From NCBI GenBank assembly GCA_046349655.1, contig JAXMBY010000051.1, forward strand, positions 1-48,797: a DNA stretch of 48,797 nucleotides, written 5' to 3'. The stretch comes from Planctomycetota bacterium. Lineage in GTDB: Bacteria; Planctomycetota; B15-G4; JAXMBY01. Shown here in pieces: positions 22,348-46,108 of the stretch. Every line of letters starts with the position of its first letter. The first letter of the stretch is position 1. Made by a program: the position numbers and the translations under genes. The notes under the pieces are model-generated. The model saw only the letters and a program-made list of their open reading frames with translations. It did no database searches and was not told the DNA's origin.

Positions 22348-22351
22348 CGGC

Positions 22352-24019: not shown

Positions 24020-26413
24020 TCAACGCCGTTCTGGCCTCGACCAGCAAACGACCATGACGATCGCGGCAACCGCCGACAACACGGCACCGATCCGAAAACT
24101 CATCGGCTCATAGTCGAAGCGCACGTGATGACGGCCCGCGGGCACGGCGATCCCCATCAAGGCATGATCGGTGCTCACGATGCGCGTGTCGGTCGCATCG
24201 ATGCGCGCGCGCCATCCGGGCAGCTGCGTCTCCGACAGCACCAGAAACCCCGGGGCATCGAGCGTGACGTCGACATCGACTTGGCTCGCACGTGGCCGCT
24301 CGACGCGGCACTCGCCGTGCCCGAGCTCGGCACCGAAGTGGATGTCTTGTTCCACGACCGCGGTGAGCGGATCGAACCGCGCGTCGGTGAGCGTGCTCAG
24401 GCGCTGCGCCGAGTCGCGGATGGAGATCACTCGGCGGGCCAGAAACGCCCGCGGCAGTGCCCGCGCTCGAGCATAGACGCCCACCGCTTCCTCGGGTTGG
24501 CCATAGACCAGCGTCAGGCCGTCCACGTCAGGCAGCTTCTCGGTGGTCAACACGTGGCTGACGCCGAGCGCATCGAGAATCGGACGCGTCACGACATCGA
24601 TGCTCGCGAAACCATTCGCCACTCGGGGATCGTCGGGATCGAGAGTGGCGGGATCGAGCGCCCGGAGCAGCTCGCCGACGCGCCTCACCACCATTGACGC
24701 CGTGCCGTCGACCGAGGACAGCGAGAACATCTGCGCGATGGTGGCCGGCAGGTGGAACGGACCACCGAGGCGGCACAGTCGCGAGCTCTGCGCACTGGTC
24801 TCGCGCTGCAGGAACTCGATCGTCGAGGTGCTCTGGTATTGTCCGGCGAGCGGCTGGAAGGGATTGCTGGCTCGCAGCAGGCTGCCCAGGTCGAGGATCG
24901 TGAACGCCAGCAGCACCGGGGCCACCCAGGACCGCATGGCCCGATGGCGCAGCAGCAGGCTCAGTGTGCCGAGCACGAGCGCAGCGAGCAGCAAGTGCAG
25001 CACGTCGGCGGCCAGGGCCGTGCGCAATCGATCCGCGCCGGTGTCGAACGCGTGCGGCAGAAGGAACCAGCACGCGAGCGCCACCACGGCGTAGATCATG
25101 GCGGTGATCGCGAGCAGCCGGTTCTGCGCCGGCGACGGGTTGTCGAAGAGCGCATCGAGGCCGGCGGCTGCGAGATACGCGAGCCCCGCGCTGGCGAGCC
25201 ACAGGATGCGCTTGGGGCTGCCGGCCGTGAAGCCGGGCAGCAGCCGAGCCAGGTCCGAGAAACCCGGCACCGCCATGGCAGCGAGCCACGCGAAGATCAC
25301 CAGGCTGCCGAAGAAGCGCGCATGGCGACGGCGGTTTGCGCCCAGCAGCGCGAACGGCAGCACCAGGAGGCCCACGTACACCGTGTTCTCGGCGAAGTTG
25401 TTCTGGATGTCGAGCTTGCCCTCGGCCGTGTGCTTCAGCCAGTGCTCCTCGGTGGGCAACGGCTCGATCTTGGCAGCCGCACGTCCGGCGAGGTCGATCT
25501 CCACCACCGGATTCTGGAACAGATGCGGAACCAGCAGGCCGCACAACAGCTCGGGCTCGATCGCCTTCTCGCCGAGGCGCTGTCGTGCCAGCCCGCTGCT
25601 GCGCATGGAGTTCTGCAGCAGCTCGGTGGCGGGCATCAGGTGCACGCTCGACAGCGCGCCGCCAAGCATGAGCCCGCACGCAAAGCACGAGGCCGCGCGC
25701 CACGACCACGCGCGCGGTTGCGCAGTGACCGCATGGAACACCGCGTACGCGCTCGCCGCTGCGAGCTCCAGCAATGCGAGCTGGGGAAAGCCGGCCAGCA
25801 AGCACAGGCCGGCGACCAGCGCGAGAGTGCCCATCGAGCGGAGCGAAGGTCGTTCCACGACGCGCTCGGCCGCGAGCAGCAGCCAAGGAAAGTACGCCGC
25901 CGTGTAGATGAAATGCGGGACATGCACGTGCACGCCGATGAAGCCGCAGCACATCGCCGCGATTGCGCCGAACGTCGCCGCCAAGGCGCCGTGGCCGCGA
26001 CGTGACAAGAACAGCAGCGTGCCCGTGCCGAGCAGTACGAGATGCAGCGCGATCGACACCGCGAAGCCGCGAACCTCGCCGAACCACAGCATGATCGGCA
26101 GCGTGATGTAGATCAACGGATAGGCGAGATTCGCGAGCAGCGGCTGGCCCAGATACACGTGCGGATTCCAGAGCGGCAGCTCGCCGCGACGCAACTGTGC
26201 GAGCATCACCGAGGTCTCTGGAATGATCCAGCCGTTGATGTCGGACGTGACGAAGTTCATCGGCCGAGGCTGTGAATCGCGCGGCGCGTGCACGATCCAG
26301 GGCGAGAGGAATCGGTTGTCGAGACTCAACAGCGACGCGTCGAGGAACAGCGGCTCGAACAGCATCGCACCGACCACCACCACGATCGCGATCACGGATC
26401 GGCAGGTCTTCAC
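24020..26413 (-). CDS. YfhO-family polytopic membrane protein (GT-C-like glycosyltransferase)
   Basis: 797 aa, many TM helices at the N-terminus and a large C-terminal periplasmic domain. Overall architecture and motifs (WNPHVYLGQPLLANLAYPL, NTVYVGLLVLPFALLG) are typical of YfhO. Confidence 0.65.
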   Translation of the reverse strand: MKTCRSVIAIVVVVGAMLFEPLFLDASLLSLDNRFLSPWIVHAPRDSQPRPMNFVTSDINGWIIPETSVMLAQLRRGELPLWNPHVYLGQPLLANLAYPLIYITLPIMLWFGEVRGFAVSIALHLVLLGTGTLLFLSRRGHGALAATFGAIAAMCCGFIGVHVHVPHFIYTAAYFPWLLLAAERVVERPSLRSMGTLALVAGLCLLAGFPQLALLELAAASAYAVFHAVTAQPRAWSWRAASCFACGLMLGGALSSVHLMPATELLQNSMRSSGLARQRLGEKAIEPELLCGLLVPHLFQNPVVEIDLAGRAAAKIEPLPTEEHWLKHTAEGKLDIQNNFAENTVYVGLLVLPFALLGANRRRHARFFGSLVIFAWLAAMAVPGFSDLARLLPGFTAGSPKRILWLASAGLAYLAAAGLDALFDNPSPAQNRLLAITAMIYAVVALACWFLLPHAFDTGADRLRTALAADVLHLLLAALVLGTLSLLLRHRAMRSWVAPVLLAFTILDLGSLLRASNPFQPLAGQYQSTSTIEFLQRETSAQSSRLCRLGGPFHLPATIAQMFSLSSVDGTASMVVRRVGELLRALDPATLDPDDPRVANGFASIDVVTRPILDALGVSHVLTTEKLPDVDGLTLVYGQPEEAVGVYARARALPRAFLARRVISIRDSAQRLSTLTDARFDPLTAVVEQDIHFGAELGHGECRVERPRASQVDVDVTLDAPGFLVLSETQLPGWRARIDATDTRIVSTDHALMGIAVPAGRHHVRFDYEPMSFRIGAVLSAVAAIVMVVCWSRPERR

Positions 26414-26684: not shown

Positions 26685-27775
26685 TCACTCCGCCGCCCGC
26701 GTGACCTTCCACGCGCCTCTCGGTGCCAGCGTCTTCACATCGAGCGCGCGCAGGTAGTAGGTCGCCGGCGCCAGCGATTCCCAGGTGAGCGACGAGAACT
26801 GAAAGCGCGCATCGCGGCCCAGATGACCGGCCGCGAGCACGAAGAACGGCTCCAGCGCGAGCTCGAGGACATACGGAAGCGGCTCGCCCTCGAGCTCGAG
26901 CGTGACCGGCTGCGGGGTTCGGCCAAGATCGACGAATGGCGTCACCGGCGTGGGCTCGTGCAGCTCGTGCGCCGATGCAACCAGCTCTTGCAACGCGCGA
27001 TCGATCGGTGCGAACCACGGGTGATGGCGGTGCAGATAGCGGGCTCTCGAGATGCGGCACTTCGCCATGGCCTCGTTCCACACGGTGCCGACGCTGCGAT
27101 GCGCGAAGTGCACGGCCTCGGCTTCTGGCACCAACAGCGATCGTCCGATCGCACGCATATAGACGAGTCGGCATCCTCGTAGTAGGCGGAAACGGCCTCG
27201 TCGAATCCGCCCACTTGCATGAGGAGATCGCGGCGCGCGGCCAGGAACGCGCCGGTGAGCGCCCGCTGTTCACGCGGCTCTTTCGCGGTCCAGCAGGCGA
27301 GCGTGCCCACCGCGCAGGCCTGGCCGTCGGCGGTATCCAGGGTGTAGTCGAAGGCTGCGCGCAGCCGAGCAGCAGATGGATCTCCGGGATCAAAGCGGCG
27401 CCGGCTCGGCGTGCGCGGCTCGGCGAGCCGGCCTCCCAGGTGCATCGAGGTAGGCCGACGTAATACTCGAGCTCCGGCACGCATACGGCAGCTCGACGTT
27501 GAGGAAGAACACGTGCGGCCAGCGACCTGGAGCAGGCCGAGGTTGCAACTCGCCGTATAGCGGTATTGCGCAGCAGAGCAGAACACCTGCGGCCAGGTCC
27601 TCGAGCTCGCCGAGATGGACGACGATCCAGGCGGCGACGCGTTGTCCACCACCACCAGCTCGCCGCGCCAGCTCGCGTGCGAGGCGAGGTCTTGATCGCG
27701 CAGCGATTCGAACAACAGGTCGAGATACTGGCCGGGTGAAGTTGGCGACGATGAAGGACAGGTCGGCTTGCTCAT
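26685..27775 (-). pseudogene. GT2-family glycosyltransferase, multiply frameshifted
   Basis: GT2 signatures are scattered over at least 3 frames: YLDLLFESLRDQD...GELVVVDNASP (27775-27600), AAFDYTLDTADGQ...FLARRDLLMQVGGFDEAVSAYYEDADS (27420-27170), VPEAEAVHFAHRS (ORF 26685-27158). Confidence 0.55.
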
Positions 27776-27830
27776 GGTTGGTCGTAGGCATCATCGGCAG
27801 TCTTCCCGGCGGTCGAACGTCGCAGGGTCA

Positions 27831-28589
27831 TCAGAAGAAGTCGATGTCGCCCATGGTCTGATACCAGTGCTCGTTCAACCACCGGCGATTGGCCCACTTC
27901 ACATAGGAACGAAAGGCTTGCTGGTACGGGGTGAACTGCACGAAGAAGCCATGCTCTGTACAGGACGCAAGAACTCGGCATGGGCTGCGGAAACCACGCG
28001 ACGATGGCGCGCTTGCCGCGGCGTGAGGTCTCGGCTCGCGCCTGCGGATCAGCAGCCATCGGCGTCGTCGCGGTCACGCGCGGGCACCAGGCACTCGAGA
28101 ATGGAGACGATGGAATCGTCCCGGCCGCCTCGCGAGCACCGCCTTCGATGCCGAACAGCTCGCCTCCTGTCATCGCTCACCTCCAGCAGCCAAGTGTTCG
28201 ACGTCGGGGTGATCGGCATAGCGCCAGTTGAGGTACGCGGCGTCGCGGATCGTGGCGTGGTGATGGTTGCCTTCGCACGCTCCCACAGCGCATCGACCGC
28301 GGCGCCGAAGCGCGGCACGCGCCTCGCGCTCACACCGCGAGCCGCACCCACCAGCGGGATGCTCGCCTCGCGCACCAGGAAACTGACGTCGCGCAGCACC
28401 TCGAACGAGAAACCGAACGCCGACCCGCAGCAACGGCAGTTCCGGGAAAACCGAGCAGCGCGTTCGTGCGGCCGCGGGCCGATCAGGTACAGCTCGGCCA
28501 TGCGCACGATCAGGCCGGTTCTCTGCAATCCCCGCCGGTGCTCGGGTCGATGGCGACATCGGACTGAACGCTCTGGCGGCACCGCTCAC
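27831..28589 (-). pseudogene. GNAT/FemAB-like (Acetyltransf_6-type) acyltransferase, fragmented
   Basis: Fragments HHATIRDAAYLNWRYADHP (ORF 28170-28589), MAELYLIGPRP...SFEVLRDVSFLVREASIPLVGAA (ORF 28049-28582), and a C-terminal HGFFVQFTPYQQAFRSYVKWANRRWLNEHWYQTMGDIDFF ending at TGA 27831 (found by my own six-frame reading; it is not in the ORF track because the frame is short). Confidence 0.4.
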
Positions 28590-28861
28590 CGTTCAAGACG
28601 CAGGCGCTGGGAATCCCGGCGTACTGTGCGACGCAGCGCCCATCGCGCCGCATGGCAGGGATCACCTCGGTGGCACGCAGCGGATTGTCGCGAAACTTCG
28701 GTGCCAGTGGTGCCGGGTCCGCGGTCGGGCCTTTGCGAACACTCGATTGTGCAGGTCGAGCACCGCCTCGGCATCCGCCTCGGCAAAGGGCCTCACCGTC
28801 AGCCGCTGGTCAGGCACCGGTTCGCTCGGCGCGACACAGCGCCGTGATCTCGTAGGCCAGG

Positions 28862-29494
28862 TCACCGTTCTCGGGCAGTCTTGAGCAGGAGGCATTGGCT
28901 GATCAGCTCGCGAATCTCGGCCGCCAGCTGCGGCCGCAGGTCGGCAAACTCATCGCACCAGAGGTTGCGCTGTCGCTCGACCTGGAAATCCACGATCAGG
29001 TCGAGCGTCGGCAGGACGTGCGCCACGGCAACTTCCTGATGCCGTGCCCGAAAGCACGCCCGAGCGCGGCGGCCATCACGCTGCCGCGGCGATGAAACGG
29101 AGCCACGCGCCAGGGCGGCTCGGGGATCGTGACGACATCGCTGATGACGATCACGCCATCGGGGCGCAACAGCTTCACGCAGTGCTCGAACAACGAGTTC
29201 CAGGCGCGGCGTAGCGCGCAGCACCTCGATGAACACCAGCCCGTCGAACAGGTCGTGCTCAACACCAGCACGCCTGCTCCGCGAGGCTCACGGAACGGAA
29301 AGGCGCGGCTCGAAGCGCACGTCGCCAGCTGCGCCGGCTGAAGCTCGCGGCCCCGCGCGAATTGCCGCCAGATCGCACGGATCGATGCCGACGGCCTGGT
29401 GTCCCAGCGCCGCCAGCAATGCCGTCGTGCCGCCGAGGCCGCAGCCGACGTCGAGCACGCGGCCACCGCCAGTGAGGAACGACGCGTTCAGCAA
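28862..29494 (-). pseudogene. Class I SAM-dependent methyltransferase, >=3 frameshifts
   Basis: Motif I RVLDVGCGLGGTTALLAALGHQAVGIDP (ORF 29288-29494). Post-motif II HDLFDGLVFIEVL in a second frame (~29236). RVL-KLLRPDGVIVISDVVTIPEPPW in a third frame (ORF 28996-29466). C-terminal tail ...DEFADLRPQLAAEIRELISQ ends at 28862. Confidence 0.5.
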
Positions 29495-29796
29495 CGCCAG
29501 GCGATGTTGCGCCGCACCCAGCGAATCCGATGGGCTGGCGAAGTAGCCGAAATGGTGATGAACCGATTCGGCCAGCAGCGCGAACAGATGCAGCGGCTGC
29601 GGCGGCTGGCAGAGCAGCAGGTCGCGGCGCCCGCCGCTCGCCGATGGCAGCCCGCGGTGCCGCGACCGGCGGCGTTCCCAAGCTGGTCTGCGAGCCTCGC
29701 GCGATCAAGAGGACCTCTCCTGGTCAGCCACGATCTCCTCCTCCCGACGCACCTGCCGAGCGATCGAACGAACCCTAAAGGAGGCCGTCGATGGCG

Positions 29797-31149
29797 TCAA
29801 GGGTGCTGGGGATCAATCTCCGCCGTGGTCTCGAGCACTGCCATCAACAGCAGCGCCGCCCACGGCACCAGGTGCAGGACGAGGCGTGGGCCGGCCGACT
29901 CGAGATGCCATGAAAGGCTGTAGGGTGTGAGAACGAAGATGACGGTGTAGAGCCCCAGATGCGAGAGCAGCAGAACCGCGTAGACCAGCAGCGGCTTGGA
30001 TTTCCGCCGCGAGGCGAAGACCAGCAGCGCGGTCGCCGCGAGCACGATCCACAGCGAGCCCCACATCGGCGTGCGCTCGTCGTCGACTTGCAGCTGAGTC
30101 CGCATGAATGCCGCCAGGATCCGTGGCACTCGGCCGCGGTTGGCGATCAGATCGATCGCTCGCACGCCGCGGAACAGCGGGTCGTCGATGCCATGCGACG
30201 TGCGCAGGAAGAGCCACGCGAGCGCGGGCCCGAGCGCGGTCAGCGCGAACACCGCCCACTGGGTGAATCGAACGCGCCGCGCCAAGCACAGCACGGCGAT
30301 CGCGGCACCGGTGATCAGCGCCAAGGCAAGGCCTTCGTTCTTGGTGAGCGCGCCAAACCCGAGCAGCAGACCCGCAGCGATGGCAGGCCTCACGCTCGCG
30401 CTCGCCAGCGCCTCGCGACCGAGGATGGCGAAGCCGAGCACGAACGCGGCGAGCGGCAGATCGGCGAACCCGCTCTCGCCGGCACTCCTCAGCGCCGGCG
30501 TCAAGGTGACGACCAGGAGCGCGATCGCTGCTGGGCGTGGCGGCAAGCGCCGCCTGGCCTCATCGAGCAGCAGTCCCACGAACGCGAGCAAGAACAGTGC
30601 GAACATCGGCTTCACGATCCGGCTGCGCAGCGAGGGCGCGGCGAAAAACAGCAACGCCTCGTTCAGCGCGATCAGCGGCGGGTATTCGATGTGCTCGGGC
30701 GCGGCCAGCGACTTCAGCCGCTCGGGTGCCAGGCTGCGCTCCACTTCGAAGACGCGCGCATTGGTGGCGTAGATCGTGATCGGGTCGGACGCATCGAGGG
30801 GCTCCGCGAGGCCGTGCAGGAGGACGGCGCCGAACAGCAGCAGCGGGAGCGTCTCGATGACTGTCGGTCCGTGCGGCACTGGCGGCAACCAGCGCTTCTC
30901 GAGCCACCACCTCGCCAGCCACCAGAGCGCAACCGGCAAGAGAACCATCGGCAGGCCAAACGCGATGCCGAGGAAGTGCGCCGCCATCATGATGACGGCC
31001 ACCGTGCCGGTCCCGAGCAGCCACCGCCAGCCGAGGAACGCAACCCAGGACCGTGCGCTGACCCCGACCAGCGAAGCGAGCAGATCGCCCGCGGCGAGGA
31101 TCAGCACGTAGGCCAGTGAGGCCTTGGCGGCATCGAGGATCATGGCCAT
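29797..31149 (-). CDS. Polytopic membrane protein, GT-C/O-antigen-polymerase-like (family uncertain)
   Basis: 450 aa, ~12 hydrophobic helices, periplasmic loops with conserved Asp/Glu (PLDASDPITIY). Positioned downstream of a secreted hypothetical and upstream of the decayed methyltransferase/acyltransferase/GT2 block on the same strand. Confidence 0.5.
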   Translation of the reverse strand: MAMILDAAKASLAYVLILAAGDLLASLVGVSARSWVAFLGWRWLLGTGTVAVIMMAAHFLGIAFGLPMVLLPVALWWLARWWLEKRWLPPVPHGPTVIETLPLLLFGAVLLHGLAEPLDASDPITIYATNARVFEVERSLAPERLKSLAAPEHIEYPPLIALNEALLFFAAPSLRSRIVKPMFALFLLAFVGLLLDEARRRLPPRPAAIALLVVTLTPALRSAGESGFADLPLAAFVLGFAILGREALASASVRPAIAAGLLLGFGALTKNEGLALALITGAAIAVLCLARRVRFTQWAVFALTALGPALAWLFLRTSHGIDDPLFRGVRAIDLIANRGRVPRILAAFMRTQLQVDDERTPMWGSLWIVLAATALLVFASRRKSKPLLVYAVLLLSHLGLYTVIFVLTPYSLSWHLESAGPRLVLHLVPWAALLLMAVLETTAEIDPQHP

Positions 31150-31743: not shown

Positions 31744-32985
31744 ATGGAATCGGTCGTGACCGACTTTGCCATCCGGACGCAGAACCTGAACAAGAAGTAC
31801 CGGCTCTACGCTTCGGCGGCGGATCGCCTGCGCGAGCTCGCCGCGCGTGGACGACGCAAGCTGCACCGGGAAGTGTGGGCGTTGCGTGACATCAACCTGC
31901 AGGTCGAGAAAGGGTCGTCGCTCGGCGTGGTGGGCAGCAACGGCGCGGGCAAATCGACCTTGCTCAAGATCCTGGCCGGCACCACCCAGCAGACCGCGGG
32001 CACTTTCGAGGTGCGCGGCACGGTCGCGAGCCTGATCGAGCTGGGCACCGGCTTCCACGCCGGATTCACCGGCCGCCAGAACATCTATCTCAGCGCCGCC
32101 ATCATCGGCTTGCGACGCCAGGAGATCAAGAGCAAGCTCGGCGAGATCATCGACTTCAGCGAGCTCGGGCCGTTCATCGATGCACCGGTGCGCACCTACT
32201 CTTCGGGCATGGTGATGCGGCTTGGATTCTCGGTCGCCACCGCCGTCGACCCGGACGTCCTGATGATCGACGAGATCCTGGCGGTGGGTGATCTGCACTT
32301 CCAGAAGAAATGCATCGACCGGATCTTCGAGCTCAAGAGCCGCGGCAAGTCGATCCTGCTCTGCTCGCATTCGCTCTACGACGTGCGGCAGGTGTGCGAG
32401 ACCGCGGTGTGGTTGCGAGACGGCATGCTGCAGCGGTTCGGCGACGCCGCCCTGGTGACGCACGCCTACGCGGAATACGAGCGCTCGAGGTTTCGAGGTG
32501 GGCGCCCGGCCAGCGCAGTCGCCGACGCGCAGCGACACCAGGACCGCGCCGACAGCACCCCGCGCATCGGTCGGGTCAGGATCGTCAATCAACGCAGTGA
32601 GTCGATCTCGGTCGCTCATCTGGGCGACGACATCGCGTTCGAGATGGACTACACGGTGCCGCCTGACTGCAAGCCCCTCACGCTGGGGCTCGGCTTCTTC
32701 CGCGCTGACGGCATTCCGATCGCCACCATGGGCACCCACCTGATGGGCGTGGCGGTGCCGATCGCGCCTGGCGAGTACACGGCGCGCGTGATGCTGCCGC
32801 ACATCCGGCTCATGCATGGCGAGTTCCACGTCCAGGGCTATCTGGTCGACGACAAGGCGATGCACTTCTACGACCATGCCATGGTGAGCCAGCCGCTGGT
32901 CATCGAGCAAACCACCAAGGAGGTGGGCATGTTCCTCATGGATCATCAGTGGTCCATCACCAAGTGCGCAGCTGTTCGAGGATGA
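31744..32985 (+). CDS. ABC transporter ATP-binding protein, polysaccharide/O-antigen export type (Wzt/TagH-like) with a C-terminal substrate-binding beta domain
   Basis: Walker A GSNGAGKST, signature YSSGMVMRLGFSVA, Walker B VLMIDEILAVGD, H-loop LCSHS. A ~160-aa C-terminal extension is typical of Wzt carbohydrate-binding domains. Confidence 0.8.
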   Translation: MESVVTDFAIRTQNLNKKYRLYASAADRLRELAARGRRKLHREVWALRDINLQVEKGSSLGVVGSNGAGKSTLLKILAGTTQQTAGTFEVRGTVASLIELGTGFHAGFTGRQNIYLSAAIIGLRRQEIKSKLGEIIDFSELGPFIDAPVRTYSSGMVMRLGFSVATAVDPDVLMIDEILAVGDLHFQKKCIDRIFELKSRGKSILLCSHSLYDVRQVCETAVWLRDGMLQRFGDAALVTHAYAEYERSRFRGGRPASAVADAQRHQDRADSTPRIGRVRIVNQRSESISVAHLGDDIAFEMDYTVPPDCKPLTLGLGFFRADGIPIATMGTHLMGVAVPIAPGEYTARVMLPHIRLMHGEFHVQGYLVDDKAMHFYDHAMVSQPLVIEQTTKEVGMFLMDHQWSITKCAAVRG

Positions 32986-34126
32986 ACGGCAGGATGCGAT
33001 CGGCAATGACGTCGTTGCCGCGTGCGGTGTGATGGCAGTCGTCATAGAACAGCGGCTCGCTGCTCGTCTGGTAGGCCTGGCGTAGAGTGGGCAGAAGATC
33101 CAGCAGCAGCAACCCGTGCTCGGCACAGATGCGCCGCAGCTGTCGCTGCGGATAGTCTTCCACGAACTGCGCCTCCACCTGGACCCGCACCGGAAAGCAC
33201 ACCACGAGCGGGGTGAAGTGATGCAGGATCGACAGCCGCTTGAGCTCGCCGAACATCGGCTGCAGTCGGCGCCACGGATCATCCACCCACACGTGGCCCC
33301 AGCTGTAGAAATGCTTGAGCACGAAGCCGTAGAACGCATTGCGATCGACCAGCGGATCGCCGCTTGCCTGCGGGTACATCTTGCGTGCCTTCGCGAACCA
33401 CCGCGCCGCGTCCTCCTTGCACAGCTCGCGGTCCTGGTCGGTGCGCCCGCGCACCATCGACAGCGCCCGATAGACGTACTGACACAGCCAGCTGCGCCGC
33501 AACCAGCGCGGCACCGCGAGGATCCTCACGCCCGGGGAGTCGGCGACGTCGTTCAGGAAGAACCCGACCACCACCACGTCGGGCTCGAGGGCGATGCCGC
33601 TCTCGACCAGGATCGAGAGCTCGGTGGCGAGCGAGATGCCGGAGACGCCGGCATTGATGGTCTCGAGCGGCTGCGCGCGTTGCTCGGAGCGCGACTCGAC
33701 CAGGCGCACGAAGCACTGCTCGTCCGGCAGGTATTCCGCCATGGTGATCGAGTCGCCGAGGAACAGCACGCGCGGGCGCGTCTTCTTGCCGATCTCGCGA
33801 TTCCGGAAGCCGAGCGAGTTGGTGATCACCTGGGTGGTGAGCCCGCTCGTGCTGCTGTTCTCGATCGTCACCCGGCTGCTGGCGCGCAGCCGTCTCCCGT
33901 TCGGCGTGGGCACGAACAGGCCGATCTCGAGCGGCGTGCGCTGCGCGCTTCCCACCAGCGGCGAGCGGTTCTCTTCGGCCAGGCGCTCGGTGGTTCCCGA
34001 CAGCATCGTGATCTCGACGATGGGTGGCGGCCGGCAGCAGCAGCGCGCGGCGATCTCGAGCAGCACGATCGTCAGCAGGCTCGACGAGAACAGCAACCCC
34101 AGCCTGCCAGCGAGGCGCTTCGCCAT
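32957..34126 (-). CDS. SGNH/GDSL-family hydrolase with an N-terminal membrane anchor
   Basis: Block I VLFLGDSITMAEY (GDS), block III VVVVGFFLNDV, block V DDCHHTARG (DxxH). Probable start MAKRLAGRLGLLFSSSLLTIVLL at 34126, or MTARS at 34150. The longer ORF extending to 34363 has an implausible N-terminus. Confidence 0.65.
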   Translation of the reverse strand: MAKRLAGRLGLLFSSSLLTIVLLEIAARCCCRPPPIVEITMLSGTTERLAEENRSPLVGSAQRTPLEIGLFVPTPNGRRLRASSRVTIENSSTSGLTTQVITNSLGFRNREIGKKTRPRVLFLGDSITMAEYLPDEQCFVRLVESRSEQRAQPLETINAGVSGISLATELSILVESGIALEPDVVVVGFFLNDVADSPGVRILAVPRWLRRSWLCQYVYRALSMVRGRTDQDRELCKEDAARWFAKARKMYPQASGDPLVDRNAFYGFVLKHFYSWGHVWVDDPWRRLQPMFGELKRLSILHHFTPLVVCFPVRVQVEAQFVEDYPQRQLRRICAEHGLLLLDLLPTLRQAYQTSSEPLFYDDCHHTARGNDVIADRILPFILEQLRTW

Positions 34127-34355
34127 GATCCGGAACGACCGTGCTGTCATCGAAGCGAGGCCAGTGCAATAGCTTGGTTTGCGGCGTCCGGAGCGCATCA
34201 TCGTGCCACCACTGCCGAGCGTCAAGCACGCCCGCCGGCAGCCCTCTTGCCAGAAGCGGCCGTCTCGGTTATCTGATCGGTTGGACCGCTGCCGTACCGC
34301 CATCACAGTCCACGGCCATTCCATCGCGACGATGCAACCGGGAGAGGTGGTTGCC

Positions 34356-35957
34356 ATGGGCATGAAGCTGGTTGATGGTCCGCGCGCCCGCGTGGTGCTG
34401 TACTATCCCAAGCTGTGGGAACCACAGTGGCCTATGTGGGCGCCGCTCGACATGTATGCCATCGCCACGTCGCTCCTGCATCGCGGCTACGAGGTGACGC
34501 TGATCGACGAGCGCGTCCATCCCGATCCGATCGAGTGGCTGATGAAGGAGTTGCCGGGCGCGCTGATGGTCGGCCTGTCGGGCAAGTTCGGTGATCAGTG
34601 CCGCTACATGCGGGACCGCGCCCGGCTGATCAAGAGCGTGCGGCCCGATCTCCCGATCATGGCCGGTGGCTGGTTCCCGTCGCTGTTCCCGGAGGCCACG
34701 CTCGAATCACCCGACATCGACATCGTGGCGATCGGACCCGGCGACTTCAGCGCGCCCGAGGTGGCCGATCGACTGCTCGCCCATCGCAGCCTCGATGGCG
34801 TGCAGGGCGTCTGGGCGCGAGAACGCGGCACGCTGATCAAGAATCCGATCGGACATCTGCCGCGGCTCGACGACACGCACCCGATCGACTGGGAGCTGAT
34901 GGGCATTCGACACTACGTGCACCCCAACGGCTGGGTCAACTACTTCACCAGCCGCGGCTGCCCGGGCGGCTGCACGTTCTGCTCCATCTTCTGCCTCGAC
35001 CCGCACCGCTGGACCGCGCTCTCGGCGGAGCGCGTGGTGGACGAGATGGAGATCTTGGTGCATCGCATCGGCGCGCACGCTCTCAAGATCATGGACACCG
35101 ACTACTGCGCCGACGTGCGGCGCGTCGAGCGCATCTCGCAGCTGATCCTGCAGCGCGGCCTCGAGGTGCGCTACGAGGTGCTCGGCCGCCACTACAACCT
35201 GTGCCGCATGAACGACGAGCAGATCCGTCTGCTGCGCCGGTCCGGCTGCACCGAGATCGAGATGGGTGTCGAGTCGGGCTCGCAGCGGCTCGCCGATCTG
35301 ATCGACAAGCAGCTGCGCGTCGACCTAGTGCTCGGCACCGCGCGCCGCTTCGTGCAGAACGGGATCCGGCTCAAGGTCAACTTCATGTTCGGCATGCCCA
35401 CCGAGACGCGCGCGGACCTGGCGCAGAGCTTCCGCTTGATGATCGCTCTCAACGACGAGCTCGGCGAAGGCATCCGCCTCCAGCTGTTCCGCTTCACGCC
35501 CCTGCCCGACGCCCCGCTCAACAAGCAGGTCTGGTCGATGAAGGCGCGCGGCCACGACGGCCGCACCCCGCGCACCTTCGACGAGCTGCTCGCCCTGCCG
35601 ATCAACGAGGAGCCCGCGCACATGTTCTGGGTGTCGAAGCAGCACGAGCGCGACGTCAAGCGCACGTTCTACTACTACGCGCCGCTGGTGTTCTACAACG
35701 GCGCGCTCCAGACCGGTCGCGACCGCCCGCTGTGGACCATGGTGCTGAAGGTGCTGCAGCGCATCGCGCGCTGGCGAGTGTCGAACGGCCACTATCAGTT
35801 CCCGCTCGACATGTGGCTCAACGATTGGTTCGGCAAGCCCATGCCGCGCGCCGATGACGACGGCATCGGTCCCCCGGAGGACGTGCTGCCGGCGCCGGCT
35901 CCGATCTTCATGGGTGACTCGGTCGACACCAAGGCGCCGCTCGAGCCGGTGGTGTGA
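34356..35957 (+). CDS. B12-binding domain radical SAM protein (class B rSAM) with a C-terminal extension
   Basis: RBS GGAGAGGTGG 8 nt before ATG 34356. N-terminal cobalamin-binding Rossmann-like domain (VVLYYPKL...VTLIDERV...IMAGGWFPS). Radical SAM cluster motif CPGGCTFC (CxxxCxxC). ~120-aa C-terminal tail. Confidence 0.8.
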   Translation: MGMKLVDGPRARVVLYYPKLWEPQWPMWAPLDMYAIATSLLHRGYEVTLIDERVHPDPIEWLMKELPGALMVGLSGKFGDQCRYMRDRARLIKSVRPDLPIMAGGWFPSLFPEATLESPDIDIVAIGPGDFSAPEVADRLLAHRSLDGVQGVWARERGTLIKNPIGHLPRLDDTHPIDWELMGIRHYVHPNGWVNYFTSRGCPGGCTFCSIFCLDPHRWTALSAERVVDEMEILVHRIGAHALKIMDTDYCADVRRVERISQLILQRGLEVRYEVLGRHYNLCRMNDEQIRLLRRSGCTEIEMGVESGSQRLADLIDKQLRVDLVLGTARRFVQNGIRLKVNFMFGMPTETRADLAQSFRLMIALNDELGEGIRLQLFRFTPLPDAPLNKQVWSMKARGHDGRTPRTFDELLALPINEEPAHMFWVSKQHERDVKRTFYYYAPLVFYNGALQTGRDRPLWTMVLKVLQRIARWRVSNGHYQFPLDMWLNDWFGKPMPRADDDGIGPPEDVLPAPAPIFMGDSVDTKAPLEPVV

Positions 35958-36901
35958 CCCCACCGCAATTCAAGCCACGGTTGCTGCCAAACGAGGACGC
36001 ACTCATCCCAAACACGAGCCGCAGACGAGGACACGCTCGACAGATCATGTTGGTTGCATGCCTGATGGTCCTCGCGGCGGCGCTTTGTTTCGTGCAGCAG
36101 ACGCGCGACACGGTCGCATTGCGTTTGAGCCTGCGAGCTGGCGACGTCTTTCGCTACCGTTGCATCTTCGAGTTCACGTCCCCTTGGCTCGCCGAGACGA
36201 CCTCCCGAGAGCGCCTGCGAGGGGAGCTCGACGTGTGCCTGCACGTCATGGCGACGAGCGCGACCGGACCGTCCGAGATCGATGCCGAGGTGCGGCGCGT
36301 TCGCCCGGTCACCGACGGCATGACCATGGTCGCATCGACGCCGGTCGACACTCCGGCGAACGGCCCGGAACCGGAGGTCATGCGTGTGCGCGTCACCATT
36401 GACGAGGACGGCGGCATCATGTCGCTCGACGGTGTGCCAGCGGGCGAGATGCTCCGGCGCATCATGGTATCCGTTAACGGTGTGACCCAGCCGCCACAGC
36501 TGCAGCCGCGTGATGCGCTCCCGTTCTCGTTGATGCAGGTCTTCTGCCGACTGCCAACCGGTCCCATTGCCGTCGGTGAACCCTGGCCCGCTAGCGATGT
36601 CCCCGATGCAGGTTCATTGTTTCGGAGCAAGGTCGACCGCTGGGTGAGCTCGATCGACGACGATGCGGTTGTCGTGCGGGTCGACGGCGAGACGGCAATG
36701 AATCCTACACAGATCGACGCGGCGGTGACGATGGAGTCGAAGGGTTCGCTCGGCGGCACCGAGCGCATCTCGCGGCGCGACGGGTTACTCATCGAACGCT
36801 CACTCGTCATCAAATACGTGGTGCGCGCCAAGGCCGACGACGGGGCATCGAGGACCATGGGGAAACAAACCATTACCGTGGTACGCGTCACGACACCCTG
36901 A
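35954..36901 (+). CDS. Hypothetical membrane-anchored protein (315 aa), translationally coupled to the upstream rSAM gene
   Basis: GTG 35954 overlaps the rSAM stop (GTGTGA). A single N-terminal TM segment MLVACLMVLAAALCF is followed by a beta-rich soluble domain. No family recognised. Confidence 0.5.
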   Translation: MTPPQFKPRLLPNEDALIPNTSRRRGHARQIMLVACLMVLAAALCFVQQTRDTVALRLSLRAGDVFRYRCIFEFTSPWLAETTSRERLRGELDVCLHVMATSATGPSEIDAEVRRVRPVTDGMTMVASTPVDTPANGPEPEVMRVRVTIDEDGGIMSLDGVPAGEMLRRIMVSVNGVTQPPQLQPRDALPFSLMQVFCRLPTGPIAVGEPWPASDVPDAGSLFRSKVDRWVSSIDDDAVVVRVDGETAMNPTQIDAAVTMESKGSLGGTERISRRDGLLIERSLVIKYVVRAKADDGASRTMGKQTITVVRVTTP

Positions 36902-37133
36902 TCAGGACGAGCACGGCGCGTTGTGGGAAGGTCTAATGGGTCGCGGCTCAGCGTGGCCGCGATGCACCACCTTATCACCGACCGGCCGCGGCCGCGCCGA
37001 TCGAGGAACTCAGCCAGCAACTCGCCGAGCTCGGCGTGCTCCCGCTCGTTCGGTTCCTCGTCACTCATACACCACGCAATCCATCACAGCGCTTCATTCA
37101 TGACTGCCGCCACGGTCGCTCGAGGACCGGTTC

Positions 37134-39080
37134 TTATCGCGATGCCGACACCATCGCCAGTGGCTCCGCCAGGCCGCAGTCGATCAGCCCACGGGCAAGC
37201 CGCACGCCCTGTTCGCCGAGGCGATCGGGCAGCGCGCCGGCGGCGAGCGCCTCGATGAGGCGTGCTTCCTCGTCGGTCACCCGACAAGAGCGCGAGGCGC
37301 CCACCGCGGGATGCGAGAAGATCAGGTAGATGGCCGGCTCCGGCGGCACGGCGAGATACTGATCGACGTTGCGCGCCTCGAGCAGCGGCTCGGGATCGAA
37401 CGGGAAGGCCACCAATGCGAGCGGCACCGTGAACTGCAACGCCGCGAGCGGCACCGACGGCGACCGGGGCGGCGGTTGCTCGACGTCCCACGGGGGATCG
37501 ATCAGGCCTTGCGATCGGAACCGGATGCCGGCGATGTCGAGTCCCTCGAAGTGATGCCAGCCTTCGCCGACCAGCGCCATGCGGGCCAGCATGTACCGCG
37601 CGAGCGTGGCGAGGCGCGCAGCGATCTCGCGCGGCGCGGGCGCAATCGCCAGGGTCGCGACGAACGTCTCGAAGCATTCGAGGATCCGCTCGATCACCTC
37701 CTTGCCGGCTCTCAGCTGGTGGTAGAGATCCGCGTCGGATTGCAGGCCGCGCGCCGCGACGAATTGCATCCATGCCCTGGTCAGGTTGCCCACCGGCTGT
37801 CCGCTCAAGCGCCGCAGCCGATCGAGGATCCCCTGCCAGCGCTCGATCCAGTGCACCATGCGATGCCCCAGCGCCACGTCATCGCGCGACATCGTGGGCG
37901 ACGAGATCAAGCGGTTGCGATGGGCCTGGTCGTAGACCAGCTCGAGACGAGCAGCATCGGTCATCAACTCGGAGTTCGGCAGCACGTGCAGGTGCGAGCA
38001 CACGATCGCGCCAGGCGACCGATCGAAGGTCCAGTTCACGGTCCTGGTGAAGCCGTCGAGATCGTCCCTGGGCAATCCCATGATGATCTCGAGCGCCAGG
38101 CACGGCTCGCCTGACGGCGTGATCGGGTCGAGCAGGCGCTCGACCTCGGGCGGATTCCACACGCGATGGATCGCTTCCATCGCCGCCGGATTGGTGGTCT
38201 GGATGCCGACACCGACGTACGCGCGGCCGATCCTGGACAGGAGCTCGACGGTGCGCGCGTCCATGAGGCGCGGGTACAGCTCGAGCCAGATCCACGGCTT
38301 GAACTTGACCTCGAGCAGGTACTCGAGGATCTGATGGGCGCGCGGCCGGTTCAGGTTGAAGATCGCGTCGACGAAGAACACGGTCTTGATCTCGGCGCGG
38401 TTCAGCTGATCGATCTCCGCCTTGACGCGCTCGAACGAGAAGTAGCGCGCGCGGTTGCGATCCCAGCCGCAGAACGAGCAATCGAAGGGGCAGCCGCGCA
38501 GCGTCTCGACGTAGCAGCCGCCCACCGGGCGCAGCTGGCCGCCAACGTACGGCGAGGGAATCGTGTCCAGCTCGGCAATGAGCGCGCGCGCCGGCGTTTG
38601 CTGCACGTGACCGTTCTCGCGGAACGCGACGCCGCGCAGCGTCTGGTCGGGTCGCTGGCCGTCGAGCTCGCGCTCCAGGTACTCGACGAAGGTGGATTCC
38701 CCTTCACCGAGCACGATCAGATCGATCGCGGGGTTCTCGAGCAGGAGCCTGGATGCCATGGCGGTCGCATCCGGGCCGCCGAGCACGATGCGGACATCGG
38801 GACGGCGCGCCTTCAGCTCGCGGCTGACCAGAAGCGCGAGCGCGGTGTTCCAGACGTAGCAGCCCATGCCCACGATGTCGGGGCGCGCCTGCACGATGCC
38901 GTCGACGATGGGGCCCGCATGATCGCGCTCGGCATCCCACACCAGGTGCTCGACGGATGCACGGCTCGACAGGCGCGGCGCATTCTCGACCGCTGCGTGC
39001 AGATAGCCCAGGCCCAACAGCGCGCGGTCGAAGCCGCCGAAGCGGTCGCGGGTGCCCAGCGAGACGAGGACCACCCTCAT
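37134..39080 (-). CDS. Second B12-binding domain radical SAM protein with a ~200-aa C-terminal extension
   Basis: ATG at 39080 (MRVVLVSL) with AGGGA 7 nt upstream; the track ORF extends to 39125. B12-binding domain (VVLVSLGTRDRF...IVLGGPDAT). CxxxCxxC as RGCPFDCSFCG. Long helical C-terminal tail. Confidence 0.8.
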   Translation of the reverse strand: MRVVLVSLGTRDRFGGFDRALLGLGYLHAAVENAPRLSSRASVEHLVWDAERDHAGPIVDGIVQARPDIVGMGCYVWNTALALLVSRELKARRPDVRIVLGGPDATAMASRLLLENPAIDLIVLGEGESTFVEYLERELDGQRPDQTLRGVAFRENGHVQQTPARALIAELDTIPSPYVGGQLRPVGGCYVETLRGCPFDCSFCGWDRNRARYFSFERVKAEIDQLNRAEIKTVFFVDAIFNLNRPRAHQILEYLLEVKFKPWIWLELYPRLMDARTVELLSRIGRAYVGVGIQTTNPAAMEAIHRVWNPPEVERLLDPITPSGEPCLALEIIMGLPRDDLDGFTRTVNWTFDRSPGAIVCSHLHVLPNSELMTDAARLELVYDQAHRNRLISSPTMSRDDVALGHRMVHWIERWQGILDRLRRLSGQPVGNLTRAWMQFVAARGLQSDADLYHQLRAGKEVIERILECFETFVATLAIAPAPREIAARLATLARYMLARMALVGEGWHHFEGLDIAGIRFRSQGLIDPPWDVEQPPPRSPSVPLAALQFTVPLALVAFPFDPEPLLEARNVDQYLAVPPEPAIYLIFSHPAVGASRSCRVTDEEARLIEALAAGALPDRLGEQGVRLARGLIDCGLAEPLAMVSASR

Positions 39081-39408
39081 GGCGTTGTCCCTGGTGAGCG
39101 GTGCCGGAGGTGCAAGTGAGGTCAACGGTAGGGGCTCTCGCGGTTGCCGTCAAGCGGTGTCCTGGCGCGGCCTCTGCGGGACGGGCGCGGCGCGTTCGAC
39201 GGGACACGCACTCGCCGCGCGCCGGACGTGCCCCGACCGGCTGCGGCGCGCTCGATTTTCCCGGTAATCGGGTGGTGCACCTCCGGATGAGAGGAGAGCT
39301 CCCGATCTGCTCGGCGCGGCAGCGCAGATGCACTGCGCGGCTGCGCCCGAGGGCGGCGAGGGCACGCCGCCGAGAGCATTTCCCCCTCTAACAACGGAGT
39401 GATCGCCC

Positions 39409-41089: not shown

Positions 41090-41648
41090 ATGGACCAGAA
41101 ACAGCGGCGCATCCGAGACGCGTGGATCACGCTGCGCTGCCAGCTCGGCGAGGCCGATGCGTTCGCCGAGCTGGTGCGTGAGCTGGAGCGACCGCTCTCC
41201 TACTACGTGGCGCGCCTGGTGGGCGACGAGCACGCGCTCGACGTGATGCAGGAGCTCTGGCTGCGCGCGTTTCGCGGCGTGCGCAAGCTCACCGATCCGA
41301 GCGCGCTGCGGCCGTGGCTGTATCGCCTGGCGCACGGGCTCGCGATCGACCGGCTGCGGCGCGAGACTGTGCGCGAGCGGATCGAGGGCACAGGCCTCGC
41401 GGACGATGTCGCGGCCGTCGCCGAGCCCGACCTGAGCAGTGAGGATGCACAGCTCGTGCACGCGGCTCGGTGCGATCGACCTGAAGCACCGCGAGGTGCT
41501 GGTGCTGCACTTCCTCGAGGATCTGTCGCTCGAGGAAGTGGCCGCGATCGTGGGCTGCCCGATCGGCACGGTGAAGTCGCGCCTGTTCCATGCCAAGCGT
41601 GCATTGCAGGCTGTGCTGCGGAGAACGCACCATGACCAGTCCCGGTGA
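41090..41648 (+). CDS. ECF (sigma-70 family) RNA polymerase sigma factor, frameshifted between regions 2 and 4
   Basis: Region 2 DVMQELWLRAFRGVRKLTDPSALRPWLYRLAHGLAIDRLRR lies in the frame of ORF 41090-41635. Region 4 LKHREVLVLHFLEDLSLEEVAAIVGCPIGTVKSRLFHAKRAL lies in ORF 41439-41648, a different frame. The junction is near 41465 (...EDAQLVHAA|GAIDLKHRE). Confidence 0.75.
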
Positions 41649-44307: not shown

Positions 44308-44516
44308 GTGGGCGATCCTCTGGGTGACGGTGCAGCGCCAGCGCGCGGCGACCGCGGGTGCCCCAGTATACCCTGCGCTCGCGGGCGCCGGCGCGGCGCT
44401 CGTCCATGGTTGCCCTTCTGCCGCGAATCGCGACACGCGCGTGGCGAACCTGAGACTGCGTCGTGCAAGGCAGCGGCGCGAGCGAGCGAGGCGTTGCTCG
44501 CTCGCGCGCGCCCGGC

Positions 44517-46103: not shown

Positions 46104-46108
46104 GAGCT

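What the first reader, a model, noticed from the sequence alone, without database searches (positions are those of the whole stretch)
32957..39125. Cassette of two B12-binding radical SAM enzymes flanking a membrane-anchored hypothetical, next to an SGNH hydrolase and the ABC ATPase: candidate undescribed modification system
Two class-B radical SAM proteins, each with a cobalamin-binding domain, a CxxxCxxC motif and a long C-terminal tail, sit tail-to-tail around a 315-aa single-TM protein that is translationally coupled (GTGTGA overlap) to the first rSAM. Class-B rSAMs perform chemically difficult methylations and C-C formations on unactivated carbons in lipids, glycans and peptides. Here they are embedded among GT-C glycosyltransferases, an SGNH esterase/acyltransferase and a polysaccharide-type ABC ATPase. 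I see no precursor-peptide-sized ORF with a leader, so a RiPP pathway is less likely than C-methylation or cross-linking of a glycan or lipid anchor. The convergent arrangement with two paralogous rSAMs is distinctive.
Basis: partly seen in the sequence, partly recalled or inferred. Interest (0 to 1): 0.7.

Follow-up and report, generated by a model that had tools for sequence, protein, structure and literature searches.

The report
Two unrelated B12 radical-SAM genes, glycan locus
The two cobalamin-type radical SAM genes are real but are not a conserved three-gene cassette: one belongs to a recurring, uncharacterised Planctomycetota sugar-tailoring gene set whose partner genes are broken in this contig, and the other is a solitary CysS/TokK-like methylase next to an orphan gene.

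Summary
The genes exist as described. There are two class-B (B12-binding) radical SAM ORFs with CxxxCxxC motifs, convergent around a 284-315-aa ORF with one N-terminal hydrophobic segment, next to an SGNH hydrolase, a Wzt-type ABC ATPase and GT-C enzymes. The contig is a Planctomycetota MAG.

The "cassette" is not a conserved unit:
- The two rSAMs share only 27% identity over about 240 core residues.
- The middle ORF has no homologue among 5.8 billion proteins.
- The relatives of rSAM2 (44% identity or less) lie in unrelated contexts.

rSAM1 belongs to a Planctomycetota-only orthologue group of about 30 proteins. In other genomes it sits with a soluble GT2, a class-I methyltransferase whose nearest solved relatives include a glucose O-methyltransferase, and a GNAT. 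An SGNH hydrolase, an OlsC/LpxO-like or PhyH oxygenase, YfhO or a different second B12-rSAM are sometimes present too. The same MT-GNAT-GT2 trio lies 5 kb away in this window, but frameshifts and stop codons disrupt it.

More distant rSAM1 relatives sit in classic polysaccharide loci. A glycan-tailoring role for rSAM1 is therefore plausible, and a RiPP role is unlikely.

The rSAM2 model matches CysS/TokK over nearly its whole length.

Verdict: ordinary uncharacterised enzymes, with a modestly interesting conserved module.

The parts
34356..35957 (+). rSAM1: class-B (B12-binding) radical SAM protein, 531-533 aa, soluble. It belongs to a Planctomycetota-only orthologue group.
   Evidence: Pfam B12-binding and Radical_SAM. 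No NCBIfam model reaches its cut-off; the best are ApyD, BzaD and the ladderane-type model at 94-97 bits. About 30 orthologues share 50-62% identity, then identity drops to 38% or less. C200, C204, C207 and C211 are invariant. No TM segment.
35954..36901 (+). ORFan of 315 aa from GTG 35954, or 284 aa from ATG 36047. It has an N-terminal hydrophobic segment (signal peptide or signal anchor) followed by a predicted beta-rich region.
   Evidence: It finds only itself among 5.8 billion proteins. The DUF6263 hit is 20.5 bits, below the gathering score of 26.7. Hydropathy. The single-sequence AF2 model has pLDDT 38.7 and is not usable. GC by codon position is 0.65/0.50/0.78. No similarity to any ORF of the related loci.
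37134..39125 (-). rSAM2: class-B radical SAM protein of 648 aa from ATG 39080, or 663 aa from TTG 39125. Its architecture resembles CysS/TokK.
   Evidence: Pfam. The best NCBIfam is KedN5 at 134 bits, against a cut-off of 700. PDB sequence hits are CysS 9n1b at 2.5e-28 and TokK 7kdx at 3e-25. The AF2 model has pLDDT 87.9. Foldseek gives CysS TMq 0.66 and TokK 0.58 over 540-700 alignment columns. Full-length relatives are P0151 (44%), P0152 (34%) and P0153 (33%).
32957..34126 (-). Membrane-anchored SGNH/GDSL hydrolase, divergently transcribed from rSAM1. Homologues recur at some rSAM1 orthologue loci.
   Evidence: Lipase_GDSL_2 at 33.3 bits against a gathering score of 32.9. N-terminal hydrophobic segment. 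tblastn hits in L002, L011 and L026 at 27-31% identity.
31744..32985 (+). Wzt/TagH-type polysaccharide ABC-exporter ATPase with a Wzt_C domain. No adjacent Wzm permease was identified, and the gene is absent from rSAM1 orthologue loci.
29797..31149 (-). Polytopic GT-C-like membrane protein. The PMT_2 and GT87 hits are below the gathering scores.
28874..29668 (-). Disrupted class-I methyltransferase, homologous to the MT that accompanies rSAM1 orthologues.
   Evidence: tblastn gives 30-37% identity to the MTs of L004, L008, L011, L005 and L002, with frame changes and an in-frame stop.
27834..28811 (-). Disrupted GNAT-like (Acetyltransf_9) gene, homologous to the ~320-aa protein of the module.
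   Evidence: It aligns end to end with the orthologues but has 4 in-frame stops and at least 2 frame changes. The family hits Acetyltransf_9 in 6 of 6 members.
26697..27694 (-). Disrupted soluble GT2 glycosyltransferase, homologous to the GT2 of the module.
   Evidence: Two tblastn segments lie in different frames and join near 27160. The site is not a homopolymer.
24020..26413 (-). Intact YfhO-family GT-C glycosyltransferase. YfhO also lies next to rSAM1 orthologues in L001 and L008.
   Evidence: Pfam YfhO at 65.8 bits. 37% identity to the YfhO genes of L001 and L008.

Best explanation
The region is three independent pieces, not one cassette.

(1) rSAM1 is the radical enzyme of a Planctomycetota-specific cytoplasmic tailoring module. 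The module consists of rSAM1, a soluble GT2, a class-I methyltransferase related to sugar O-methyltransferases, and a GNAT acyltransferase. Variable additions are an anchored SGNH hydrolase, an OlsC/LpxO-like or PhyH oxygenase, YfhO, or a further B12-rSAM.

Inferred mechanism: the GT2 installs a sugar on a glycan or glycoconjugate precursor. rSAM1 then uses 5'-deoxyadenosyl radical and cobalamin chemistry on an unactivated carbon of that sugar or of its aglycone. C-methylation is the most likely reaction; a non-methylating rearrangement is possible. The MT and the GNAT add O-methyl and N-acyl groups. The product is handed to envelope machinery (YfhO/GT-C, SGNH).

In this contig the MT, GNAT and GT2 genes are disrupted, so the module may be inactive here.

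(2) rSAM2 is a separate CysS/TokK-like class-B enzyme, most likely a C-methyltransferase, with its own transcription unit. Its substrate is not indicated by its neighbours.

(3) The middle ORF is a lineage-specific exported or anchored protein with no demonstrable link to either enzyme.

Shown: domain content, orthology, synteny, gene disruption and fold similarity. Inferred: substrate class, reaction type and direction of flow.
For: - rSAM1 has an orthologue clade followed by a sharp identity drop. All named or titled records are Planctomycetota or Phycisphaerales.
- Neighbour clustering and tblastn place GT2 at 9 loci, MT at 8, GNAT at 7, an oxygenase at 4, SGNH at 4 (including the window) and YfhO at 3.
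- The module proteins lack TM segments, apart from one borderline hydrophobic stretch in the L002 GT2.
- The nearest solved relatives of the MT profile are 3bus, the D-glucose O-methyltransferase 6uv6 and MitM. The nearest for the GT2 profile are polysaccharide synthases. The GNAT family hits Acetyltransf_9 in 6 of 6 members.
- Distant rSAM1 relatives lie in loci with Wzy_C, Polysacc_synt, GT4 and GT9 genes and several B12-rSAM/MT pairs.
- The window's own trio is mapped and disrupted.
- rSAM2 differs from rSAM1, has a CysS/TokK-like fold, and its relatives sit in unrelated contexts.
- The middle gene is an ORFan.
Against: - No member of the rSAM1 family or of its module has been characterised, and no literature was found.
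- The GT2 is soluble and unlike GtrB/CsbB, so the link to YfhO is not the classical three-component scheme.
- The hydroxylase is OlsC/LpxO-like. rSAM2 relatives sit next to inositol-phosphate/CDP-alcohol or patatin genes. Both observations would fit a lipid substrate.
- The MT and GT2 similarities (RebM/MitM-type, MftF-type) fit a small-molecule glycoside equally well.
- Gene disruption could be a local assembly fault rather than biology.
- Synteny counts rest on only about 12 loci, several of them short.
Confidence: 0.55

Rival explanations
1. One reading: rSAM1, the TM protein and rSAM2 form one co-functional cassette. With the SGNH hydrolase and the ABC ATPase, it C-methylates or cross-links a glycan or a lipid anchor.
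For: - Physical adjacency, and a possible 4-nt start/stop overlap between rSAM1 and the ORF.
- A glycan-type neighbourhood.
- A second, non-orthologous B12-rSAM also lies near rSAM1 orthologues in L002 and L010, and further radical SAM-like genes lie near it in L025 and L027. Clustering of several radical SAM genes is therefore a recurrent theme.
Against: - The arrangement is conserved in no other locus.
- rSAM2 is convergently transcribed as its own unit.
- The ORF start is ambiguous, and the GenBank protein length (284 aa) corresponds to a start 93 nt downstream.
- The ABC ATPase is absent from orthologue loci and no adjacent permease was identified.
Confidence: 0.1
2. A lipid-modifying role. 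One or both rSAMs would methylate or otherwise alter a membrane lipid or a lipid head group, as HpnP/HpnR/HpnJ and the archaeal lipid rSAMs do.
For: - An OlsC/LpxO-like hydroxylase is in the module at L001, L005 and L011.
- The rSAM2 relative P0152 lies between inositol-1-phosphate synthase and a CDP-alcohol phosphatidyltransferase, and P0123 lies next to a patatin gene.
- HpnI (GT2) plus HpnJ (B12-rSAM) is a precedent for sugar-on-lipid radical chemistry (my own knowledge, not tested here).
Against: - Scores for HpnJ, HpnR and the ladderane-type model are 52-94 bits, against cut-offs of 360-650.
- No hopanoid, isoprenoid or fatty-acid genes were identified among the window ORFs scanned.
- The lipid hints come from relatives at 33-34% identity, each seen at a single locus or a pair of near-identical loci.
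Confidence: 0.15
3. A small-molecule natural-product pathway. The GT2, MT, GNAT and rSAM1 would tailor a secreted glycoside, and rSAM2 would act like CysS/TokK on a pantetheine- or carrier-bound intermediate.
For: - rSAM2 resembles CysS/TokK in fold and sequence, and KedN5 is its best NCBIfam hit.
- The MT is nearest to 3bus, 6uv6 and MitM, and the GT2 is nearest to MftF.
Against: - No carrier protein, NRPS, PKS or other scaffold genes were seen in the window or in the neighbour tables of the rSAM1 orthologue loci.
- YfhO, SGNH and MBOAT neighbours, and the polysaccharide loci of distant relatives, point to envelope glycans.
Confidence: 0.15
4. A RiPP maturation system, in which the rSAMs methylate a ribosomal precursor peptide.
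For: Weak sub-threshold similarity to ApyD and to rSAM_ocin_1 (61-97 bits).
Against: - The scores are far below the cut-offs of 282 and 750.
- No plausible small ORF lies in the gaps, and all candidates have non-coding GC patterns.
- No small ORF outside the known genes is conserved within ±4 kb across 8 loci.
- No leader peptidase or RiPP recognition element partner was seen near rSAM1.
Confidence: 0.03

Closest known systems
CysS and TokK/ThnK (KedN5-type cobalamin-dependent radical SAM C-methyltransferases of natural-product pathways)
   Same: rSAM2 has the same three-part architecture: an N-terminal B12 Rossmann domain, a radical SAM barrel and a roughly 250-aa, largely helical C-terminal region. 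These are its best sequence and fold matches: CysS at 2.5e-28 with TMq 0.66, and TokK at 3e-25 with TMq 0.58. KedN5 is its best NCBIfam hit.
   Different: Identity in the fold alignments is 18-21%. The KedN5 score is 134 bits against a cut-off of 700. There is no carrier protein or antibiotic cluster around it. Its own relatives are in unrelated, non-BGC contexts in Planctomycetota-like contigs.
HpnI/HpnJ (GT2 plus B12-radical SAM acting on a lipid-linked sugar in hopanoid cyclitol ether synthesis)
   Same: A GT2 is paired with a class-B rSAM, so the sugar added by the GT2 is a plausible radical substrate. rSAM1 sits next to a GT2 at 9 loci.
   Different: rSAM1 scores 75 bits on the HpnJ model against a cut-off of 578. 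No hopanoid genes were identified in the window. The partners here are an MT and a GNAT, not the HpnK deacetylase. The analogy comes from my own knowledge and is a lead only.
B12-rSAM/class-I MT pairs in Wzx/Wzy-type polysaccharide loci (uncharacterised; seen here in L037 and L038)
   Same: They are the nearest non-orthologous relatives of rSAM1 (28-29% identity over about 90% of its length) and likewise sit beside class-I MTs and glycosyltransferases.
   Different: Those loci carry Wzy_C, Polysacc_synt, GT4, GT9 and SPASM rSAM genes and several rSAM copies. The rSAM1 module has a single soluble GT2, a GNAT and no flippase or polymerase.
CsbB/GtrB-YfhO three-component extracytoplasmic glycosylation
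   Same: YfhO lies next to the GT2 and rSAM1 in L001, and near rSAM1 in L008 and the window.
   Different: The GT2 proteins checked have no C-terminal membrane helices of the kind GtrB/CsbB have. YfhO is present at only 3 loci.

Membership tests
Class-B (cobalamin-binding) radical SAM enzymes | N-terminal B12-binding Rossmann domain (PF02310) | tested here: met
   rSAM1 scores 50.2 bits and rSAM2 54.0 bits, against a gathering score of 32.1.
Class-B (cobalamin-binding) radical SAM enzymes | Radical SAM core with a CxxxCxxC cluster motif | tested here: met
   PF04055 scores 68 and 48 bits. The motifs are CPGGCTFC, invariant in 25 orthologues, and CPFDCSFC, invariant in alignment A3.
Class-B (cobalamin-binding) radical SAM enzymes | Actual binding of cobalamin and a [4Fe-4S] cluster; methyl transfer | not testable with these tools
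   This needs purified protein.
   HpnR scores 52 and 58 bits (cut-off 650), HpnJ 75 and 74 (cut-off 578), BchE 80 and 73 (cut-off 481). HpnP is not among the listed hits.
KedN5/TokK/CysS-type C-methyltransferases (rSAM2) | Score at or above the NCBIfam NF033712 cut-off | tested here: not met
   134 bits against a cut-off of 700.
KedN5/TokK/CysS-type C-methyltransferases (rSAM2) | Full-length fold, including the C-terminal domain | tested here: met
   Foldseek gives CysS 9n1d/9n1b at E about 1e-30 with TMq 0.66 over 542-638 columns, and TokK with TMq 0.58. The model has pLDDT 87.9.
KedN5/TokK/CysS-type C-methyltransferases (rSAM2) | Location in a pathway with a carrier-protein- or pantetheine-bound substrate | tested here: not met
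   No ACP, NRPS or PKS gene was seen in the window or near the relatives.
RiPP radical SAM C-methyltransferases (TIGR03975, ApyD) | Model cut-off reached and an adjacent precursor peptide | tested here: not met
   The scores are 61-97 bits against cut-offs of 282 and 750. No conserved small ORF was found.
Planctomycetota rSAM1 orthologue group (defined here, alignment A1) | At least 50% identity over the full length, with all invariant residues | tested here: met
   50-62% identity to P0002-P0030. The full-length members cover at least 96% of the query. The invariant columns are listed.
Planctomycetota rSAM1 orthologue group (defined here, alignment A1) | Intact GT2, MT and GNAT partner genes nearby | tested here: not met
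   All three are present at 26697-29668 (-) but interrupted by frame changes and stop codons.
Wzm/Wzt polysaccharide ABC exporter | Wzt ATPase with a Wzt_C domain plus an adjacent ABC-2 permease | tested here: inconclusive
   The ATPase and Wzt_C domain are present, at 63.5 and 32.2 bits. No adjacent permease was identified, and the neighbouring 176-aa ORF has a single hydrophobic segment.
DUF6263 (middle ORF) | Pfam gathering score | tested here: not met
   20.5 bits against a gathering score of 26.7.

The most novel reading that the evidence does not exclude
The rSAM1 family would be the first cobalamin-dependent radical SAM enzyme dedicated to tailoring a cell-envelope glycoconjugate. It would act on the sugar installed by its partner GT2, by C-methylation or by an HpnJ-like carbocycle-forming rearrangement, and produce a Planctomycetota-specific modified sugar. 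This contig would capture the module in the process of decay, while rSAM1 has been retained beside a newly arisen exported ORFan.
Probability: 0.25. Interest if true: 0.55.

Novelty: new member of a known kind. Interest (0 to 1): 0.3.

Why it matters
Class-B radical SAM enzymes carry out chemistry on unactivated carbons, and very few have assigned substrates. Here a compact, phylum-restricted module is delimited: rSAM1, a soluble GT2, a sugar-O-MT-like methyltransferase and a GNAT. Intact examples exist, for instance in the 8.07-Mb MAG chromosome OZ245006.1 and in contigs CAZIUL010000043.1 and NYUD01000022.1. These give enzymologists a tractable target for finding a new sugar modification in Planctomycetota envelopes.

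The window itself is a poor representative, because the partner genes are broken and the proposed three-gene cassette is not a conserved entity. The practical value is mainly in redirecting attention from that triad to the real module.

Tried and rejected
- **Synteny of rSAM-TM-rSAM.** I searched with all three proteins. The ORFan has no homologue, and rSAM2 relatives never lie beside rSAM1 orthologues. Rejected.
- **RiPP precursor.** I listed all ORFs of 20 aa or more in 32.9-39.5 kb and translated those in the gaps. All have non-coding GC patterns. A cross-locus small-ORF comparison found only shadow frames of real genes.
- **Riboswitches and other RNAs.** No Rfam match reached its gathering score.
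- **Promoter and terminator scan.** The counts do not exceed shuffled expectation.
- **Repeats.** Nothing beyond chance, apart from the shared radical SAM motif.
- **ORFan structure.** The single-sequence AF2 model has pLDDT 38.7 and is unusable, so no fold search was attempted on it.
- **GNAT family against PDB by sequence.** No hit.
- **NCBIfam for the module proteins.** Nothing reaches a cut-off.
- **ORFan as a decayed module gene.** blastx against all ORFs of the related loci found nothing.
- **Literature.** Six full-text searches combined B12/cobalamin radical SAM with Planctomycetes, YfhO, O-antigen, exopolysaccharide or polysaccharide. They returned only a lipid rSAM review that is not relevant to this family.
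- **Phylogeny with characterised class-B sequences.** NCBIfam and PDB scores were used as a proxy.
Full report
**What is in the sequence.** The window is a 48.8-kb, 67% GC contig of a Planctomycetota MAG. rSAM1 matches an NCBI protein from a 48,797-bp contig at 100% identity. Between 32.9 and 39.1 kb the genes are:
- an N-terminally anchored SGNH hydrolase, 32957-34126 (-);
- rSAM1, 34356/34362-35957 (+);
- an ORF from 35954 (GTG) or 36047 (ATG) to 36901 (+);
- rSAM2, 37134-39080/39125 (-).

Both rSAMs carry PF02310 (B12-binding) and PF04055 (Radical_SAM) above the gathering scores, plus a CxxxCxxC motif. Upstream lie a Wzt/TagH-type ABC ATPase with a Wzt_C domain, a 176-aa ORF, a GT-C-like membrane protein, YfhO and a PMT_2-like protein.

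**What is not correct in the observation.** The two rSAMs are not close paralogues. BLASTP aligns only about 240 core residues at 27% identity, and the two proteins lean towards different class-B families:
- rSAM1 has no preferred NCBIfam. ApyD, BzaD, the ladderane-type model, BchE and HpnJ all score 75-97 bits, far below their cut-offs.
- rSAM2 clearly prefers KedN5 (134 bits) and, in the PDB, CysS and TokK.

The GTGTGA overlap exists. However, the GenBank protein is 284 aa, which corresponds to a start at ATG 36047, and a TTG at 35981 is also in frame. Translational coupling is therefore possible but unproven. Neither tail matches a Pfam family.

**The middle ORF.** It finds only itself among 5.8 billion proteins. 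It has one hydrophobic segment near the N-terminus and a sub-threshold DUF6263 hit. Its GC3 is lower than its neighbours', at 0.78 against 0.87-0.91. It shows no similarity to any ORF at related loci. A single-sequence AlphaFold model was too poor to use. It is best described as a lineage-specific exported or anchored protein of unknown role.

**rSAM1 belongs to a conserved module.** A protein search gives about 30 proteins at 50-62% identity, the full-length ones covering at least 96% of the query. Identity then drops sharply to 38% or less. Every named source is Planctomycetota or Phycisphaerales.

Contexts came from contig look-ups and from genome and metagenome scans. They were compared by all-against-all BLAST and tblastn. 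The recurrent neighbours are:

| Neighbour | Loci where found | Supporting evidence |
|---|---|---|
| Soluble GT2, about 370-405 aa | 9, including a 36%-identity relative | |
| Class-I methyltransferase | 8 | |
| ~320-aa GNAT | 7 | Acetyltransf_9 in 6 of 6 members |
| OlsC/LpxO-like Asp/Arg hydroxylase or PhyH | 4 | |
| SGNH homologous to the window's | 4, including the window | |
| YfhO | 3, including the window | |

Some loci also carry a second B12-rSAM of yet another clade (L002, L010; further radical SAM-like genes in L025 and L027). The core proteins have no membrane segments, apart from one borderline hydrophobic stretch in the L002 GT2.

The MT profile is nearest to 3bus, to the D-glucose O-methyltransferase 6uv6 and to MitM. 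The GT2 profile is nearest to polysaccharide synthases and other GT2s.

More distant relatives of rSAM1 (28-29% identity) sit in textbook polysaccharide loci. These contain Wzy_C, Polysacc_synt, GT4, GT9 and Asn-synthase genes, and two to four B12-rSAM genes alternating with class-I MTs.

**The partner genes are broken in this window.** tblastn with the intact orthologues maps the same trio on the minus strand about 5 kb from rSAM1: MT at 29668-28874, GNAT at 28811-27834 and GT2 at 27694-26697. Each is interrupted:
- the GNAT has four in-frame stops and at least two frame changes;
- the MT has two frame changes and one stop;
- the GT2 changes frame near 27160, at a site that is not a homopolymer.

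All flanking genes, including the 797-aa YfhO, are intact. This looks like local gene decay, but an assembly fault cannot be excluded without the reads.

**rSAM2.** The word-indexed search found almost nothing. An exhaustive HMMER search then found a small set of full-length relatives: P0151 at 44%, P0152 at 34% and P0153 at 33% identity. Thousands of core-only hits follow. Their contexts differ:
- P0151 lies between an MscS channel and a Polyketide_cyc2 protein;
- P0152 lies between inositol-1-phosphate synthase and a CDP-alcohol phosphatidyltransferase;
- P0153 lies next to a 5'-3' exonuclease;
- P0122 lies beside an MT and a GT4;
- P0123 lies beside a patatin gene.

None has an rSAM1 orthologue or an ORFan homologue. 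An AlphaFold model built from 21 sequences is confident (pLDDT 87.9, pTM 0.87). Its best matches are CysS (TMq 0.66) and TokK (TMq 0.58), over alignments that span almost the whole protein. The "long tail" therefore appears largely to correspond to the C-terminal domain of that methylase type. No carrier protein or antibiotic pathway surrounds it.

**No RiPP.** ORFs in the three intergenic gaps have non-coding GC patterns. No small ORF outside the known genes is conserved within ±4 kb across eight loci. No Rfam family matches.

**Interpretation.** The data support a glycan or glycoconjugate-tailoring role for rSAM1, as part of a cytoplasmic module of GT2, MT, GNAT and rSAM. Its product probably ends up in the envelope, given the anchored SGNH hydrolase, YfhO, and the MBOAT and sulfotransferase-like genes at some loci. 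The reaction type is inferred only from what class-B enzymes are known to do: C-methylation is most likely, and a rearrangement is possible. Lipid and small-molecule alternatives remain open.

The rSAM-TM-rSAM triad is a juxtaposition specific to this contig.

**Novelty and score.** Both enzymes are new, uncharacterised members of a very large and well-known superfamily, and nothing in their architecture is unprecedented. The delimited Planctomycetota module is a useful lead but not a surprise, and in this window it is apparently defective. Interest is 0.3.

Noticed in passing
window 26697-29668 (-): Three consecutive genes are broken by at least 5 frame changes and at least 5 in-frame stops. 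They are the class-I MT, the GNAT-like gene and the soluble GT2, which are the conserved partners of rSAM1 orthologues. All flanking genes are intact. This is either local pseudogenisation or an assembly fault.
   Followed up: yes
window 31744-32985 (+): The Wzt-type ABC ATPase with a Wzt_C domain has no adjacent Wzm/ABC-2 permease that I could identify. Its divergent neighbour is a 176-aa ORF with one hydrophobic segment and no family hit.
   Followed up: partly
window 20704-23998 (+): An FG-GAP repeat protein is followed 5 nt later by a PMT_2-like GT-C membrane protein. This could be a pair for O-glycosylation of a secreted protein. Other FG-GAP proteins lie at 175-1869 and 39409-40956, and upstream of the rSAM1 orthologue in L001 (6051-8774).
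   Followed up: no
L037 8001-13335 and L038 5009-17034: Distant rSAM1 relatives sit in Wzy/Wzx-type polysaccharide loci. These loci contain two to four B12-rSAM genes alternating with class-I methyltransferases, plus SPASM radical SAM genes. This looks like an uncharacterised but recurrent pattern of radical glycan tailoring.
   Followed up: partly
L020 1086-6142; L016 7286-10338: The rSAM2 relative P0152 lies between inositol-1-phosphate synthase and a CDP-alcohol phosphatidyltransferase. P0123 lies directly after a patatin-like phospholipase. This is a weak hint of a lipid head-group connection for that family.
   Followed up: no
L002 14963-16303 (-) and L010 1315-2661 (-): A third clade of B12-rSAM ('rSAMb') accompanies rSAM1 orthologues at these two loci. 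The L002 copy is 446 aa, the two copies share 47% identity, and the best NCBIfam hit is rSAM_ocin_1 at 135 bits against a cut-off of 282. It is not orthologous to the window's rSAM2.
   Followed up: partly
L002 9007-9918 and L026 762-1553: A 303-aa protein, 72% identical between the two loci, lies beside the module. It has a sub-threshold Sulfotransfer_3 hit (24.6 bits, gathering score 27). L002 also has an MBOAT and a second MT nearby.
   Followed up: partly
window 41090-43154 (+) and 43164-44468 (-): An ECF sigma factor, a 150-aa possible anti-sigma factor and an S8 subtilase are followed by a second SGNH hydrolase. That hydrolase is distantly related to the one beside rSAM1 (34% identity over 100 aa).
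   Followed up: no
window 44517-46705 (-): An SPFH/Band-7 protein with a downstream weak NfeD-like ORF. This resembles the usual membrane-scaffold pair and is unrelated to the finding.
   Followed up: no
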